Shown piece by piece: positions 55,001 through 63,964 of a stretch of 64,000 bases of DNA. The stretch lies in the sequence record PZ534534.1; one strand, written 5' to 3'. Source of the DNA: a phage. The notes under the pieces were generated by a model, which saw only the letters and a list, made by a program, of their open reading frames with translations, ran no database searches and was not told the origin of the DNA. The position numbers were made by a program, and so were the translations under genes. Numbering within the stretch: the first letter of the stretch is position 1; each line of letters starts with the position of its first letter.

Positions 55001-55108
55001 ATAGGAAATTGTTACGGAGGGTAATTAGCATGCTAATTAAATTTATTAAATGCGAGGGATTCTTATTTAGAATTTTGAATGATAATTATTCTCGTTTGCA
55101 GAATAACG

Positions 55109-55146
55109 GGCAGGCCCGGTGATTGTCTCCCGGCCCCTGCTGCCCC
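55109..55146 (+). repeat. GC-rich motif, copy A
   Basis: Contains CCCGGTGATTGTCTCCC inside AT-rich surroundings. Confidence 0.5.
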
Positions 55147-55247
55147 GGCTTGTTATTATAGTATCACACAGGACAAAGAAGGCAAGGATTTTTTGCATAA
55201 ATTTTTAAATGATAATGATAACCGTTCTCATTTTATGAAGCGCCCAT

Positions 55248-55285
55248 CCCCGGTGGTTGTCTCCCCCGTCACCGGTGCCTGCCGT
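55248..55285 (+). repeat. GC-rich motif, copy B
   Basis: CCCCGGTGGTTGTCTCCCCCGTCACCGGTGCCTGCCGT; direct repeat of copy A. Confidence 0.5.
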
Positions 55286-55437
55286 CCTTTCGATAGGTAT
55301 ATTATGCCGCCTGGCGGGGCCGCTGTCAACACTTTTCAAAAAATTTTTCTAACCTGATGCGCTAACCGTTGCAACCTGGCGGGGCCAGCCTGGCAGGTCC
55401 GCACTATAAAGTAAACAGCTACAGAAGAGGTACAAAA

Positions 55438-55614
55438 ATGAAAGGTAATGCTACTCGCCTGGGAAATGTAGTGATTAATGATACGGAAGCTATCGCCCTG
55501 GTTGAAAAGGTTATGGCGGGAGCGTTGGAACATAAAGAAGAGTACGAAAAAAAATGGTGGTTAACCTGGCGGGGGGCGGCAGGTGGATTCTATCATAAAA
55601 ATAATTTAAAATAG
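55438..55614 (+). CDS. small hypothetical protein
   Basis: ATG 55438 after AGAAGAGG; 58 aa; preceded by TATAAAGTAAAC box. Confidence 0.4.
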   Translation: MKGNATRLGNVVINDTEAIALVEKVMAGALEHKEEYEKKWWLTWRGAAGGFYHKNNLK

Positions 55615-55617
55615 TCG

Positions 55618-55645
55618 TTGACAACAAGGTTAATCATGGTATTAT
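55618..55645 (+). promoter_or_regulatory. sigma70-like promoter
   Basis: TTGACA-N16-TATTAT. Confidence 0.5.
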
Positions 55646-55695
55646 TACCCTACAAGGTGAACAACACCGCACTAACCAGTAAAGAGGATAAATTT

Positions 55696-55893
55696 ATGAA
55701 CGCATACGGGATCAAAGTACGTCGCAACACTCGCCAGGTGGTCACCAATCAAGTGATTTGCCGGGTGGATGTAACCATTAACAACGGGCAAGGCCTTTAT
55801 AAATTTCGTCGCGGTCATAGCTATACCCTGCAACAGCTTGATCGTTGCGCCCTGACAAAAGGACAGATCAACCACTGGTTTAATAAAAAATAA
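55696..55893 (+). CDS. small basic hypothetical protein
   Basis: ATG 55696 after AAAGAGGA; 65 aa. Confidence 0.4.
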   Translation: MNAYGIKVRRNTRQVVTNQVICRVDVTINNGQGLYKFRRGHSYTLQQLDRCALTKGQINHWFNKK

Positions 55894-55896
55894 GTA

Positions 55897-55925
55897 TTGA
55901 CATATAGTCCGACACCAAATACACT
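55897..55925 (+). promoter_or_regulatory. sigma70-like promoter
   Basis: TTGACA-N17-TACACT. Confidence 0.45.
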
Positions 55926-55957
55926 AAAAGCACAAAAGACACTAAGAGGATAAAATC

Positions 55958-56356
55958 ATGAAAACCACTACCTTTAATTTTGATAATGCGGACTTTTCTT
56001 TTTCTGATGTCAAGAACTGCCGCCGTGATCGTGGATTTTACAAGGCTTATAATCTGGTGGGCCTGGACGATGACAATAATTTGCACGAAGTAGCTGAGAT
56101 CCGGTATTATGCCGCCGCCAGCGGGAACACTCACTACTGCGTGTTTTGGATTCACGACAACAAGAACAATAAGTACGGTTATACTGGCGGCAAGGCGAGC
56201 GGTCACGGTTACGATAAAGCTAACGCAGCACTTGAGGGCGCATTAAATGCTATGGGGATCACTGCCGACGGCTGGATCTACGAAGAAGAGTTTTTGTCGG
56301 CACTTGCTGACCACCTGGGCTATAAAAAACACATTGTAACATGTGCCCACGAATAA
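55958..56356 (+). CDS. hypothetical protein
   Basis: 132 aa ORF with AGAGGA RBS. Confidence 0.45.
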   Translation: MKTTTFNFDNADFSFSDVKNCRRDRGFYKAYNLVGLDDDNNLHEVAEIRYYAAASGNTHYCVFWIHDNKNNKYGYTGGKASGHGYDKANAALEGALNAMGITADGWIYEEEFLSALADHLGYKKHIVTCAHE

Positions 56357-56363
56357 AAAATTA

Positions 56364-56391
56364 TTGACACGCTGCAAAATTCAAGTAAACT
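56364..56391 (+). promoter_or_regulatory. sigma70-like promoter
   Basis: TTGACA-N16-TAAACT. Confidence 0.4.
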
Positions 56392-56440
56392 ATACACAAA
56401 AGGCGGGAATGTTTCCCGCCAACACAAAGGAAAAAAGATC

Positions 56441-56836
56441 ATGAATAAGAACGTACGCCGCATCATGAACGAACTGGCAAACGATGAAAAAATTATTGAT
56501 ATGCATTTGGTCAACATTTGCCACCGTTGTGTAACATACAACAACCGCGCCGCGAAAGCGCGTGAGATGAACGCAAAAGGCACCTTAAAGCCCTTTCAGG
56601 TGGTTGTAAAATCTATAACTAGCGCAGCAGGCCAGGCGCATGACCACAACAACGAGAGCGCTAATATTGATCCGTCTTACGTAATGAAACGGATCCGGAC
56701 TTGCAAGAATAAAGAGCAGGTGTATAACGTCATAGATTGGCTGGACTCCCTGGGCGATGTGGTTTACAATAGGTTTTCTGCAGCTATTGAGATTCAGTTA
56801 GACAGGTTGGACGGGAAAGTACTGAAAACTTACTGA
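56441..56836 (+). CDS. hypothetical protein
   Basis: 131 aa ORF with AAAGGAAAA RBS. Confidence 0.45.
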   Translation: MNKNVRRIMNELANDEKIIDMHLVNICHRCVTYNNRAAKAREMNAKGTLKPFQVVVKSITSAAGQAHDHNNESANIDPSYVMKRIRTCKNKEQVYNVIDWLDSLGDVVYNRFSAAIEIQLDRLDGKVLKTY

Positions 56837-56837
56837 G

Positions 56838-56883
56838 TTTATTTTTAGATGGCCTTGACTCCAGGGCCATCAATAAAGTAAAC
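56838..56883 (+). promoter_or_regulatory. conserved hairpin plus TAAAGT element, copy 1
   Basis: GATGGCC(56848-54)/GGCCATC(56865-71) stem, loop TTGACTCCAG, then 13 bp to TAAAGT (56874-79); gene starts at 56917. Confidence 0.5.
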
Positions 56884-56916
56884 TAACCACAGTTGAGCGG
56901 AAAGGGGGGCTTAAAG

Positions 56917-62360: not shown

Positions 62361-62388
62361 TTGACATGACCATATAAGACTGTAGTAT
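62361..62388 (+). promoter_or_regulatory. sigma70-like promoter
   Basis: TTGACA-N16-TAGTAT. Confidence 0.45.
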
Positions 62389-62435
62389 ATAAATCAAAGG
62401 GGCAAGCCCCACCAACCACAAAGAGGATAAAAATC

Positions 62436-62615
62436 ATGGCTATTATTGCAAAGACTGAGATCGTAGGCTTGGATTCTATTCTCCTCGCATATGAGGAAGC
62501 TATAGAAATGTATGTGGTTTCCTATGGTGAGTATATCCGTGAATATAAATCTATTGATCTGGCTTTTGAATGTTATATTCGCCAGGTTAATAAAGCGTAC
62601 GATGATTATCGTTAA
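62436..62615 (+). CDS. small hypothetical protein
   Basis: 59-aa ORF below track cutoff; AAGAGGATAA RBS. Confidence 0.35.
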   Translation: MAIIAKTEIVGLDSILLAYEEAIEMYVVSYGEYIREYKSIDLAFECYIRQVNKAYDDYR

Positions 62616-62705
62616 AATAGTTTGAAAACAAACAACCATCTTACAAAGCATAATACATAAGGCGGTGGAATGGTCCGCCACCTGGAACAAGAAGAGGAAA
62701 ACAAG

Positions 62706-62810
62706 ATGAAACAGAAATTAATTGATGCGGTGATCCTAGCTATTGCCCTGGGTATTGGCCTGATTGCAACCATGTCTAATATGATCTTGTCTTCCAACGG
62801 TATCGGGTGA
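62706..62810 (+). CDS. small membrane peptide
   Basis: 34-aa hydrophobic ORF (LIDAVILAIALGIGLIATM) after GAAGAGGAAA RBS. Confidence 0.3.
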   Translation: MKQKLIDAVILAIALGIGLIATMSNMILSSNGIG

Positions 62811-62819
62811 GGTTGGCAA

Positions 62820-63035
62820 ATGATCACTAACAAAACAGGCAAAACAGAATTTTTACGCAACTTACAGATCGGCAAGCCTGAGATCTGGTATTGCACTAAA
62901 ACACCACGTGACGAAATGAAAGACTTCACCGCCACGCTGCAACGGGTAAAGATATCCATCACGCAGAAAAAGGCCTTATTAGTGGTGGAAGGTGAGATCC
63001 CCCAAACCGTTGTTATAGTTGAGCGTACAGCATAG
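62820..63035 (+). CDS. hypothetical protein
   Basis: 71 aa ORF. Confidence 0.4.
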   Translation: MITNKTGKTEFLRNLQIGKPEIWYCTKTPRDEMKDFTATLQRVKISITQKKALLVVEGEIPQTVVIVERTA

Positions 63036-63126
63036 TTTAATTTATACCGATACCCGAAAATTAACCAACAAAGCATAAACAGGCGGTTACCGCCGCCTTA
63101 AACGTAGCAGAAAGAGGATAGACACA

Positions 63127-63411
63127 ATGAAAAAGATGATCGCAGTGGTTGCCCTAGTTGTTGGACTTAATGCGCCTGTAATGGCCAAAGAGCTGGCAAA
63201 AGAGGTTAATCTAACGGATATTCATGCCGTCAATCGAATCGGGGTTACTTATCGCTTATGCCTTGCCACTAAAACTTTTAAGGACGGCACAACAGAGTAC
63301 TACGGATTCGAGGGTGTCCGGTGCGGTGAGCTTGCTCGCGACCTTAAGGAAGATCCAGACCTGGAAGATCTGCCCATCACCGTAAACGGTAAAGCTTACG
63401 TAAACCGTTAA
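63127..63411 (+). CDS. secreted small protein
   Basis: N-terminal signal-peptide-like MKKMIAVVALVVGLNAPVMA; AAGAGGATAG RBS. Confidence 0.45.
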   Translation: MKKMIAVVALVVGLNAPVMAKELAKEVNLTDIHAVNRIGVTYRLCLATKTFKDGTTEYYGFEGVRCGELARDLKEDPDLEDLPITVNGKAYVNR

Positions 63412-63413
63412 CC

Positions 63414-63548
63414 ATGAGAAAGATAATCATCACCTTGGGGATTGTGGTGGCAATATTGGCGCTCTTTCCCCTTATGGTTAGGTATGTGCTGATCGGTATT
63501 GTCCTGGTAGTCAGTGATCTATTGGAAACGGTTGGCACCTTGTTTTAA
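63414..63548 (+). CDS. small membrane peptide
   Basis: 44-aa hydrophobic ORF starting 3 nt after upstream stop. Confidence 0.3.
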   Translation: MRKIIITLGIVVAILALFPLMVRYVLIGIVLVVSDLLETVGTLF

Positions 63549-63560
63549 AGAGCGGTAAAA

Positions 63561-63752
63561 ATGAATATCGAACAAGTTAGAAAGGTATTGGCGGTACTGC
63601 GTTATCATAATCATAGAAAGGTTATAGACGATCCTGATTATGTTGATTCAAGTCTGGAAGGGGATACACTGCAAGCCATAAGCAACATGCAAGAATTGCT
63701 AAAGCGCATGACAGAGAAAAACCGACCGGACTACATAGGCGAAAAAATATAA
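63561..63752 (+). CDS. hypothetical protein
   Basis: 63 aa ORF. Confidence 0.4.
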   Translation: MNIEQVRKVLAVLRYHNHRKVIDDPDYVDSSLEGDTLQAISNMQELLKRMTEKNRPDYIGEKI

Positions 63753-63766
63753 TATTTATAAACTAC

Positions 63767-63796
63767 AAAACAGGGCTTGCAATGGTCCTGTTTTTT
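63767..63796 (+). terminator. rho-independent terminator
   Basis: CAGGG/TCCTG stem with 10-nt loop followed by TTTTTT. Confidence 0.5.
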
Positions 63797-63810
63797 GTTA
63801 TACTTGTTTC

Positions 63811-63858
63811 ACGGCAGGCACCTGGCGACAGGGGGAGACAATCACCGGGTGTGCCTGC
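63811..63858 (-). repeat. GC-rich motif, copy C (inverted)
   Basis: Reverse complement CCCGGTGATTGTCTCCCCCTGTCGCCAGGTGCCTGCCGT matches copies A and B. Confidence 0.5.
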
Positions 63859-63880
63859 TATATAAAAACTATAAAAACCG

Positions 63881-63909
63881 TTGACATCTGCCAGGTGGTG
63901 GGGTAGCAT
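63881..63909 (+). promoter_or_regulatory. sigma70-like promoter
   Basis: TTGACA-N17-TAGCAT upstream of ATG at 63965. Confidence 0.35.
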
Positions 63910-63964
63910 TTATCTCGAAGGGGGCAAAAGCGCCCACACAACAACCGGAAGAGAGGAAAACGCC

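What the first reader, a model, noticed from the sequence alone, without database searches (positions are those of the whole stretch)
55100..63960. Module of about 22 small monocistronic genes bracketed by an inverted GC-rich motif
From 55.1 kb on, nearly every gene is under 210 aa and has its own TTGACA-N16/17-TATAAT-like promoter and often its own terminator. Products include an extremely acidic protein, several membrane peptides and a secreted protein, none with a recognisable enzymatic fold. This is the architecture of host-takeover or anti-defence regions. A roughly 40-bp GC-rich motif bounds the module in inverted orientation.
Basis: partly seen in the sequence, partly recalled or inferred. 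Interest (0 to 1): 0.7.

Follow-up and report, generated by a model that had tools for sequence, protein, structure and literature searches.

The report
Early accessory gene block, rV5-like phage
This is the variable block of small, individually promoted genes of unknown function near the genome end of an rV5-like E. coli phage, ordinary in kind, but bordered by a conserved, undescribed non-coding element that carries promoters and sequences resembling binding sites for the host iron regulator Fur.

Summary
The window is a Vequintavirus (rV5-like E. coli myophage), 92-97% identical to more than 100 GenBank genomes.

**The block.** 55.4-63.8 kb holds 25 plus-strand ORFs of 39-207 aa. Nine strong sigma-70 promoter matches lie on the coding strand, against 1.65 expected. 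About 15 of 26 genes have their own promoter, so "nearly every gene" overstates it. Every ORF that matched a PHROG family fell in one of unknown function. One ORF resembles T7 gp1.1. Two confident AlphaFold models have no solved structural relative. An early host-takeover or anti-defence role is plausible but only inferred.

**The GC-rich motif.** It is real and rare: three copies in the window, and two in a complete related genome, always at the block's borders. It is not a plain hairpin or a transposon end.
- Each copy lies just downstream of a sigma-70 promoter.
- Left copies also carry a Fur-box-like palindrome (16/19 and 14/19 matches).
- The roughly 75-bp element is conserved at 80-89% in non-coding DNA of distant genera (Klebsiella, Salmonella, Cronobacter, Pectobacterium, Proteus phages).
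- No RNA-structure covariation and no Rfam match were found.

**Verdict.** An ordinary early accessory region, plus an uncharacterised and possibly Fur-responsive border element.

The parts
54473..55075 (.). ORF-free, repeat-rich region just upstream of the block. Degenerate units spaced 65-81 nt apart contain AAATGGATTT, GTACTCGATCT and TTTTCGTTTTC.
   Evidence: It is conserved only within Vequintavirus, at 82-99%. It has no DnaA boxes and no Rfam match.
55075..55185 (-). Left border element, copy A.
- Fur-box-like palindrome at 55075-55093.
- Forward promoter-like TTGAAT(55075)-N18-CAGAAT(55099-55104).
- GC core at 55116-55131.
- Minus-strand -10 TATAAT at 55160->55155, with TTGCCT at 55185->55180 (19-nt spacer).
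   Evidence: The sequence from the core to the Fur-like box is conserved at 80-89% in other genera.
55208..55350 (-). Left border element, copy B.
- Fur-box-like site at 55211-55229 (16/19).
- GC core at 55250-55265.
- Strong minus-strand promoter: TTGACA 55329->55324, N17, CATAAT 55306->55301, with an A/T-rich tract resembling a promoter UP element at 55330-55350.
   Evidence: Copies A and B have collapsed into one by recombination in AlexBoehm.
55438..63752 (+). 25 small ORFs of 39-207 aa:
- 55438-55614
- 55696-55893
- 55958-56356
- 56441-56836
- 56917-57036
- 57116-57457 (acidic)
- 57545-57790
- 57866-58219
- 58209-58406 (T7 gp1.1-like)
- 58625-58885
- 58960-59583 (207 aa)
- 59674-60054
- 60119-60490
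- 60544-60726
- 60710-60829
- 60974-61174
- 61260-61565
- 61791-62075
- 62131-62250
- 62436-62615
- 62670-62810
- 62820-63035
- 63127-63411 (signal-peptide-like)
- 63414-63548
- 63561-63752
   Evidence: Twenty of them were scanned: 19 matched PHROG families, all of unknown function, and one matched nothing. The only Pfam hit above cut-off is Phage_1_1.
56838..56894 (+). Composite hairpin-plus-promoter cassette: GATGGCC-TTGACTCC-AGGGCCATC, N18, TAAACT. The -35 box sits in the hairpin loop. This is copy 1 of repeat family D1.
57460..57516 (+). The same cassette, copy 2 (93% identical).
57796..57840 (+). Degenerate copy of the cassette. The hairpin is kept and the -35 box is lost.
61177..61233 (+). 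The same cassette, copy 3 (82% identical).
63767..63909 (+). Right border element, copy C.
- Terminator hairpin at 63767-63794, with TTGCAA (63777) in its loop.
- Extended -10 TGtTATACT, with the TATACT hexamer at 63799-63804.
- GC core in inverted orientation at 63833-63848, inside a 12-bp hairpin at about 63808-63856.
- A second promoter: TTGACA 63881, N17, TAGCAT 63904-63909, leading to the gene that starts at 63965.
   Evidence: It is conserved in phAPEC8, CR9, POP17 and others.

Best explanation
**The block.** 55.4-64 kb, continuing about 2.4 kb beyond the window, is the distal hypervariable accessory-gene arm of a Vequintavirus genome. It is read by unmodified host sigma-70 RNA polymerase from an array of about 16 near-consensus promoters. 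This should give early, strong and largely independent expression of some 26 small proteins, several of them membrane-targeted. Their most likely collective job is early host manipulation or counter-defence.

**The expression cassette.** Each unit is stereotyped: promoter, often a GC hairpin in the 5' untranslated region, an A/C-rich spacer, a strong Shine-Dalgarno site, then the ORF. Some units are preceded by a terminator hairpin that carries the next -35 box in its loop. The repeated cassettes probably ease gene gain and loss.

**The GC-rich motif.** It is the core of a conserved border element of roughly 75-110 bp. In every copy a sigma-70 promoter fires across the core. That transcription runs outward from the block on the left (minus strand) and rightward, toward the genome end, on the right (plus strand). 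Left-type copies add a Fur-box-like palindrome that overlaps a facing TTGAAT-N18-CAGAAT promoter. I think the element is a regulatory and insulating switch at the borders of the early block, possibly gated by host Fur.

**Status of each step.**
- Shown: the anatomy, the statistics and the conservation.
- Inferred: early timing, protein roles, Fur binding and the switch function.
For: **Identity of the phage**
-.

**Position and direction**
- In Gotham the block lies on the complement strand at record positions 1498-11318, next to a 459-bp repeat annotated at the record start.
- In AlexBoehm and naswa it runs into a 2.5-kb ORF-free gap that faces a converging minus-strand block.

**Promoters and spacing**
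- Strand-specific promoter excess: 9 against 1.65 expected.
- Per-gene promoter audit.
- Median intergenic gap 75.5 nt inside the block against 10 nt upstream.

**Proteins**
- All matched PHROG families are of unknown function, and one ORF carries the T7 gp1.1 domain.
- Two AlphaFold models with mean pLDDT 87 and 90 have no solved relative.

**Plasticity**
- Lower identity than the rest of the genome, and three single-gene insertions in AlexBoehm.

**Repeated cassettes**
-.

**The motif**
- Unique to the borders in a complete related genome.
- A promoter lies upstream of every copy, even where the promoter sequence itself differs between phages.
- Fur-like sites of at least 14/19 lie next to 16 of 22 copies, against 1% of background windows. 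The 55211 site has an expectation of 0.01 per window.
- The element is conserved in non-coding DNA of other genera.
- In POP17 the inverted pair is kept, about 9.4 kb apart.
Against: - I found no expression data for any rV5-like phage.
- Sigma-70-like promoters also occur throughout the replication-gene unit (0.68 per kb), so promoter type alone does not prove the block is immediately early.
- No ORF resembles a characterised takeover or anti-defence protein.
- The hairpin around the core is unusually stable only in Vequintavirus copies C and A.
- RNAalifold and pair counts show no covariation. The motif's mode of action, whether as a DNA site or an RNA sequence, is therefore open.
- Right copies in Vequintavirus and phAPEC8 lack a Fur-like box.
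- PVP-SE1 carries its two copies in direct orientation.
Confidence: 0.6

Rival explanations
1. The border motif encodes short phage RNAs. Each copy would be a small promoter-driven transcription unit whose conserved GGGAGACAAYCACCGG stretch acts as a seed or as a protein-binding RNA sequence. At left copies it may pair with an antisense transcript from the facing promoter.
For: - Every copy follows a sigma-70 promoter by about 20-30 nt.
- This includes at least five copies in an unrelated 46.8-kb metagenomic phage contig. There each copy follows a -10 TATAAT box (extended, TGnTATAAT, in three copies), and four of the five are followed by a T-run.
- That contig has no nucleotide similarity to catalogued phages.
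- Copy A folds into two hairpins followed by a U-rich tail.
Against: - No conserved secondary structure or covariation.
- No canonical terminator was flagged.
- No Rfam family matched.
- Folding of most copies is no better than shuffled sequence.
Confidence: 0.2
2. The motifs are only insulating hairpins or terminators. They would stop read-through into and out of the block and have no further regulatory role.
For: - They lie exactly where gene architecture changes.
- Copy C and its complement fold well (z = -3.2 and -4.5).
- Many other GC hairpins in the block look like terminators for antisense transcription.
Against: - No U-tract follows the hairpin on either strand.
- The hairpin is not kept in other genera, while the primary sequence and the adjacent palindrome are.
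- A plain terminator would not need 80-89% sequence conservation across genera.
Confidence: 0.1
3. The inverted motifs are the ends of a mobile or invertible cassette that brought in the small genes.
For: - Inverted orientation, with variable cargo between the copies.
- The copies do recombine: A and B have collapsed into one in AlexBoehm.
Against: - The block sits at the same place and in the same orientation in all 70 records that cover at least 80% of it and in AlexBoehm.
- No transposase or recombinase is present. Every ORF is at most 207 aa and, where matched, of unknown family.
- The copies are direct in PVP-SE1, and the left side has a tandem pair.
- Small genes of the same kind continue outside the bracket.
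Confidence: 0.04
4. The terminal roughly 11-12 kb works like the first-step-transfer segment of phage T5. It would enter the cell first and express takeover genes, while the ORF-free repeats and conserved inverted elements act as an entry-pause signal.
For: - The ORF-free repeats lie at 11.3-11.9 kb of the 137-kb Gotham record, that is 8.3-8.7% of the genome. T5 transfers 7.9% in its first step.
- T5 also has conserved inverted non-coding repeats flanking poorly conserved small ORFs (Davison, bioRxiv 10.1101/866236).
- Vequintavirinae share daunorubicin sensitivity with T5-like phages (PMC13250531).
Against: - No long terminal repeat: only 459 bp is annotated.
- No match to any characterised protein family that would indicate an A1, A2 or dmp homologue.
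- No DnaA boxes.
- The repeat region is conserved only within the genus.
- A similar small-gene arm faces the other genome end.
Confidence: 0.04

Closest known systems
Hyperplastic regions and PeSL (promoter-early stem-loop) cassettes of T4-like phages (Arbiol et al. 2010, PMC2839356; Comeau et al. 2014, PMC4122927)
   Same: - Arrays of small genes of unknown function.
- Each is served by a short repeated cassette that combines a terminator stem-loop with a host-type early promoter.
- Gene content differs between close relatives.
   Different: - A different phage lineage, and sequence homology to PeSLs was not tested.
- The three single-gene insertions seen against AlexBoehm are not bounded by the repeated cassette, so cassette-mediated shuffling is not shown here.
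Pre-early (first-step-transfer) region of phage T5 (Davison 2020, bioRxiv 10.1101/866236)
   Same: - A block of small sigma-70-driven genes near the genome end.
- About 8% of the genome.
- An ORF-free repeat region, plus non-coding elements in inverted orientation that are better conserved than the ORFs between them.
   Different: - No 10-kb terminal repeat.
- No match indicating A1, A2 or dmp homologues.
- No DnaA boxes.
- Two-step entry is unknown for rV5-like phages.
Fur-repressed sigma-70 promoters of enterobacteria (19-bp Fur box GATAATGATAATCATTATC; Chen et al. 2007, PMC2189734)
   Same: - Palindromes matching 14-17 of 19 consensus positions.
- At copy A and its orthologues the palindrome overlaps the -35 box and spacer of a promoter-like TTGAAT-N18-CAGAAT.
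- Some relatives carry clusters of such boxes (phiWec186, POP17).
   Different: - The sites are in a virulent phage.
- The promoter they overlap faces a second promoter about 55-65 bp away.
- Fur binding has not been tested.
- My searches of the paper library found no report of Fur boxes in lytic phages.
T7 early (class I/II) region
   Same: - Host-polymerase promoters driving small takeover proteins.
- One ORF here (58209-58406) carries the Phage_1_1 (gp1.1) domain.
   Different: No homologues of Ocr, gp0.7, gp2 or the phage RNA polymerase were found, and the gene order is unrelated.
Face-to-face promoter switches such as pR/pL of coliphage 186 and P2 (from my own knowledge)
   Same: Two convergent promoters a few tens of base pairs apart, with overlapping transcripts and an operator between them.
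   Different: Those control lysis versus lysogeny in temperate phages through phage repressors. Here the phage is virulent and no cognate regulator has been identified.

Membership tests
PeSL-type composite terminator/promoter cassette | A short conserved repeat that combines a stem-loop with a host-type early promoter. | tested here: met
   Repeat family D1 has 3 copies at 82-100% identity plus one degenerate copy. The hairpin GATGGCC...GGCCATC holds TTGACT in its loop, with TAAACT 18 nt downstream.
PeSL-type composite terminator/promoter cassette | Insertions and deletions between close relatives are bounded by the repeats, as expected for recombination at the cassettes. | tested here: not met
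   The three AlexBoehm insertions map to window 61573/8, 62690-62721 and 63753-93. The first and third lie in intergenic DNA and the second at the 5' end of ORF 62670-62810. None is at a D1 copy.
PeSL-type composite terminator/promoter cassette | Sequence relatedness to the T4-like PeSL consensus. | not tested
   No PeSL sequences were fetched.
T5-like pre-early / first-step-transfer region | Lies inside a long (about 10 kb) terminal repeat. | tested here: not met
   Gotham annotates only a 459-bp repeat at the record start.
T5-like pre-early / first-step-transfer region | Homologues of A1, A2 and dmp. | tested here: not met
   Pfam and PHROG scans of 20 ORFs gave only families of unknown function, plus Phage_1_1.
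T5-like pre-early / first-step-transfer region | A non-coding repeat region with paired DnaA boxes. | tested here: not met
   The ORF-free repeats at 54473-55075 contain no TTWTNCACA box and no site within one mismatch of TTATCCACA.
T5-like pre-early / first-step-transfer region | Two-step DNA entry. | not testable with these tools
   Needs a shear or time-course experiment.
Fur-regulated promoter | A good match to the 19-bp Fur box consensus. | tested here: met
   - 16/19 at 55211, with 0.01 such sites expected per window.
- 14/19 at 55075.
- 15-17/19 in 10 related phages.
- Background frequency of sites with at least 14/19 is 1%.
Fur-regulated promoter | The box overlaps core promoter elements. 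| tested here: inconclusive
   - At copy A the box overlaps the -35 box and spacer of TTGAAT-N18-CAGAAT.
- That pair keeps the same spacing in all seven left-type elements read from other genera, with variants: CTGAAT as the -10 in Mydo, TAGAAT in Av-05, and TTGCAA as the -35 in phiWec186.
- Its -10 is weak, copy B lacks it, and promoter activity is untested.
Fur-regulated promoter | Fur binding and iron-responsive expression. | not testable with these tools
   Needs a gel-shift or footprint assay and a fur mutant or iron-chelation experiment.
Transposon or invertible segment bounded by inverted repeats | An associated transposase or recombinase, and alternative orientation or location among relatives. 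| tested here: not met
   No such gene was found. The block is collinear in all the relatives I compared. The copies are direct in PVP-SE1.
Any curated RNA family (Rfam 15) | A covariance-model match at the motif. | tested here: not met
   - No match at gathering score in the window.
- Nothing at the motif with E-value up to 10.
- Nothing in eight related loci.

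The most novel reading that the evidence does not exclude
The border elements would be host-iron-sensing switches of a virulent phage. Fur bound to the conserved palindromes would gate one of two facing promoters across the GC core. That would tie antisense or outward transcription at the edges of the early accessory block, and so early gene expression, to the host's iron status. The circuit would be conserved across Vequintavirinae and Stephanstirmvirinae and is, as far as I could find, undescribed.
Probability: 0.2. Interest if true: 0.7.

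Novelty: new member of a known kind. Interest (0 to 1): 0.38.

Why it matters
The block itself is a routine pool of small unknown genes, useful only as a candidate list for anti-defence and toxicity screens in well-studied phages such as the BASEL collection Vequintavirus isolates.

The added value is the border element. It is a non-coding sequence conserved across genera where neighbouring genes are not, and it combines facing promoters with Fur-box-like operators. If Fur really binds it, this would be a rare case of a virulent phage reading a host nutrient regulator. It would also give a handle on how rV5-like phages, which are widely used in phage-therapy cocktails, schedule their early genes.

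Tried and rejected
- **Rfam.** Scans of the window, the motif region and eight related loci found nothing.
- **IMG/VR scan with the 16-mer core.** Most of the 120 hits were a chance identity inside a common prophage coding gene. A stricter pattern left only a few relevant contigs.
- **Conserved RNA hairpin.** RNAalifold gave -9.7 kcal/mol for right-type copies and -2.1 kcal/mol for left-type copies, with almost no covariation. My hand-drawn closing stem had no compensatory changes and did not beat shuffles.
- **ops-like, CRISPR-repeat-like and sigma-54-like readings of the flanks.** I dropped these on reading the sequences, because the resemblances were not kept between copies.
- **DnaA boxes for a T5-like stop signal.** None found.
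- **A second genomic copy of the ORF-free repeat region.** The "second place" reported by BLAST is only the region's own internal repeats.
- **GenBank labels from JLBYU08.** "YeeU-like antitoxin", "acetyltransferase" and "phosphonoacetaldehyde hydrolase" are unsupported by Pfam, PDB sequence search or the fold searches run.
- **Source phage.** naswa is identical at the left element but differs in gene content further right, so it is not the exact source.
- **Metagenomic phage carrying the motif.** It has no nucleotide match in the phage collection.

Full report
**What the window is.** The finding region is 91-94% identical to more than 140 Vequintavirus (rV5-like) E. coli myophage genomes. Seventy records cover at least 80% of it. 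The rest of the window matches tail-fibre and baseplate genes (1-25 kb) and the replication and rII genes (25-50 kb) at 95-97%. The left border element is 100% identical to phage naswa. naswa has extra genes further right, so the source is a close mosaic relative rather than naswa itself.

**Where the block lies in the genome.** In Gotham, whose record starts with an annotated 459-bp repeat, the block lies on the complement strand at record positions 1498-11318. In AlexBoehm and naswa the plus-strand block continues about 2.4 kb beyond the window. It ends at a 2.5-kb ORF-free gap that faces a converging block of minus-strand small genes. This corresponds to the distal end of the rV5 transcription unit "10-1-238-164" proposed by Kropinski et al. 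(PMC3606486).

**Check of the observation.**
- There are 25 ORFs with Shine-Dalgarno sites between 55438 and 63752 (39-207 aa), and another starting at 63965.
- One is very acidic (pI 4.1). Seven have a transmembrane-like segment. One has a signal-peptide-like N-terminus.
- Strong sigma-70 matches (at least 10/12) number 9 on the plus strand and 1 on the minus strand. Markov simulations expect 1.65 +/- 1.31.
- The tool's own scan found 37 promoter-like sites against 22 +/- 5 expected, and 24 terminator-like sites against 9.6 +/- 3.3.
- Gene by gene, about 15 of 26 have their own site of at least 9/12. The others overlap or abut the previous ORF. "Nearly every gene" is therefore too strong, and the block is about 16 units of 1-3 genes.
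- The change of layout at the left border is clear. In AlexBoehm the median gap is 75.5 nt inside the block and 10 nt upstream.
- Sigma-70-like promoters are not exclusive to the block: the 26.5-54.4 kb stretch has 0.68 per kb.

**Anatomy of the expression cassettes.**
- Many gaps share one design: TTGACA-N16/17 and a -10 box, about 10 nt, a GC hairpin, an A/C-rich spacer, AAGGAG or AGAGGA, 7-8 nt, then ATG. Examples of the hairpin are 56402-56420, 57076-57090, 58915-58929, 59629-59649, 60924-60938 and 63081-63098.
- On the minus strand several of these hairpins are followed by T-rich tracts and score as terminators. They may block antisense transcription and stabilise 5' ends. That is inference.
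- A 57-nt composite repeat occurs three times, plus one degenerate copy. It is a terminator-like hairpin with the -35 box TTGACT in its loop and TAAACT 18 nt downstream.
- This is the design described as PeSL in T4-like phages (PMC4122927; PMC2839356).
- AlexBoehm has three extra single genes relative to the window, and lower identity here (86-93%) than elsewhere (94-97%). The insertion points are not at the repeated cassette.

**The proteins.**
- Twenty ORFs were scanned. Pfam gives one hit above cut-off: Phage_1_1 (T7 gp1.1) for 58209-58406.
- PHROGs places 19 of the 20 in families of unknown function. The ORF at 60544-60726 matched none.
- The acidic protein is a small conserved core (SRxLKELDPIAYRCGFSDY) between long helices. 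Its best PDB match is a prefoldin-like coiled coil at E = 1.5.
- Functional names given in one GenBank record are not supported.
- Nothing links any ORF to a known takeover or anti-defence protein.
- The rV5 late-promoter motif has seven plus-strand matches in the structural region and one one-mismatch match in the block.
- The virion proteins named in the text of the rV5 paper are structural genes and gp133, not genes from this arm. I did not open the full proteomics table.

**The GC-rich motif: rarity.**
- The core CCGGTGRTTGTCTCCC occurs at 55116(+), 55250(+) and 63833(-) and nowhere else in the window.
- In the whole AlexBoehm genome it occurs only at the two homologous borders. There the left copy is an A/B recombinant.

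**The GC-rich motif: promoters.**
- Read on the strand that gives GGGAGACAAYCACCGG, every copy lies 20-30 nt downstream of a sigma-70 promoter.
- Copy B has TTGACA-N17-CATAAT with an A/T-rich tract resembling a UP element. Copy C has TTGCAA-N16-TGtTATACT inside a terminator loop. Copy A has TTGCCT-N19-TATAAT.
- Relatives keep a promoter there even when its sequence differs. Examples are TTGACT-N17/18-TATTCT in AlexBoehm and a metagenomic contig, and TTGACA-N17-TATTAT in two other contigs.

**The GC-rich motif: Fur-like boxes.**
- Left-type copies are followed by a palindrome that resembles the Fur box. It matches 16/19 at 55211, with 0.01 expected per window, and 14/19 at 55075.
- Across 22 copies from 14 phages and three metagenomic contigs, 16 have a site of at least 14/19 within 110 nt. 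Only 1% of background windows do.
- At copy A, and at all seven left-type elements read from other genera, the box overlaps a facing TTGAAT-N18-CAGAAT, or a close variant, with constant spacing.

**The GC-rich motif: conservation across genera.**
- The stretch from the core to the palindrome aligns at 80-89% in otherwise unalignable non-coding DNA. This holds for Klebsiella, Proteus, Salmonella, Cronobacter, Enterobacter and Pectobacterium phages, Av-05, and a phAPEC8-like phage (phiWec186).
- The right-type copy is kept in phAPEC8, CR8/CR9, Pantoea and Pectobacterium phages.
- In POP17 the inverted pair is kept about 9.4 kb apart.
- In PVP-SE1 a weaker second copy lies after the block in direct orientation.
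- An unrelated metagenomic phage contig has at least five copies, each behind a -10 TATAAT box.

**What the motif is not.**
- It matches no Rfam family.
- Only Vequintavirus copies C and A fold unusually well.
- Alignments across genera give almost no consensus structure and no compensatory changes. The primary sequence is what is conserved.
- There is no recombinase, no alternative orientation among relatives, and genes of the same kind continue outside the bracket. A mobile or invertible cassette is therefore unlikely.
- There is no U-tract, so it is not a classical terminator.

**Most likely working model.**
- The block is an early accessory arm expressed from many host-type promoters.
- The motif is the core of a border element with promoters firing across it. 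On the left it has a facing, Fur-box-overlapped promoter, which would make a compact switch or insulator.
- Promoter activity, Fur binding and any RNA product are inferred, not shown.
- A T5-like first-step-transfer analogy is tempting. The ORF-free repeats lie at 8.3-8.7% of the genome, the non-coding elements are conserved and inverted, and Vequintavirinae share daunorubicin sensitivity with T5-like phages.
- That analogy fails the tests I could run: no long terminal repeat, no A1/A2/dmp homologues and no DnaA boxes.

**Verdict.** The kind of region is well known. The conserved border element is the one feature worth an experiment.

Noticed in passing
window 54473-55075: A 600-bp ORF-free region of degenerate repeats spaced 65-81 nt apart (AAATGGATTT, GTACTCGATCT, TTTTCGTTTTC). 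The minus-strand promoters of the left border element point into it. It is conserved only within Vequintavirus. Its minus strand is A-rich. Some GenBank records call ORFs in it.
   Followed up: partly
L134 (Mydo) about 700-860 minus strand; also L135, L137, L138, L139, L140, L131 near 12193, L132 near 13195: In other genera a second conserved, promoter-driven non-coding element of about 95 nt lies just upstream of the motif unit. It reads GCCACCCCACGGCGAAAAGGCGGGGCTAAC...GGTGGATCGCCGGTAG, has no start codon and no Rfam match, and is absent from the window and from AlexBoehm.
   Followed up: partly
window 56402-56420, 57076-57090, 58915-58929, 59629-59649, 60924-60938, 63081-63098, 63920-63936: GC hairpins sit between the -10 box and the ribosome-binding site of many cassettes. 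On the opposite strand several score as terminators. They may stabilise mRNA 5' ends and block antisense transcription.
   Followed up: partly
L143 (naswa) 12850-15350: The 2.5-kb ORF-free gap beyond the window, which holds the genome ends, contains about six GTGTAAAC-type iterons and further Fur-box-like sequences (for example AATGATAACTATTCTC).
   Followed up: no
window 58209-58406: A small basic ORF with the T7 gp1.1 (Phage_1_1) domain. It overlaps the end of the preceding membrane-anchored ORF by 11 nt.
   Followed up: partly
window 36110-37444, 41581-42317, 50328-50925: Three segments present in the window but absent from AlexBoehm, inside the replication-gene unit. They were not examined.
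   Followed up: no
L004 (AlexBoehm) 17352-20971, equivalent to window about 42.3-46 kb: The DNA polymerase gene is annotated as joined from two pieces, with a putative homing endonuclease gene inside it.
   Followed up: no
IMG/VR loci L006-L125: The 16-nt motif core is, by chance, identical to a stretch inside a very common enterobacterial prophage coding gene (...GLPVIVSQYVG...). This swamps pattern searches with the core.
   Followed up: yes
GenBank records MG0656xx: About 20 records labelled 'Campylobacter phage' are 92-97% identical to these E. coli Vequintavirus genomes. The host labels look doubtful.
   Followed up: no
window 20000-26500, minus strand: A short minus-strand unit, where the GC skew flips. 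In AlexBoehm it includes the Srd-like anti-sigma factor and a metallopeptidase. The rV5 paper suggested the anti-sigma factor as a possible early-to-late switch.
   Followed up: no
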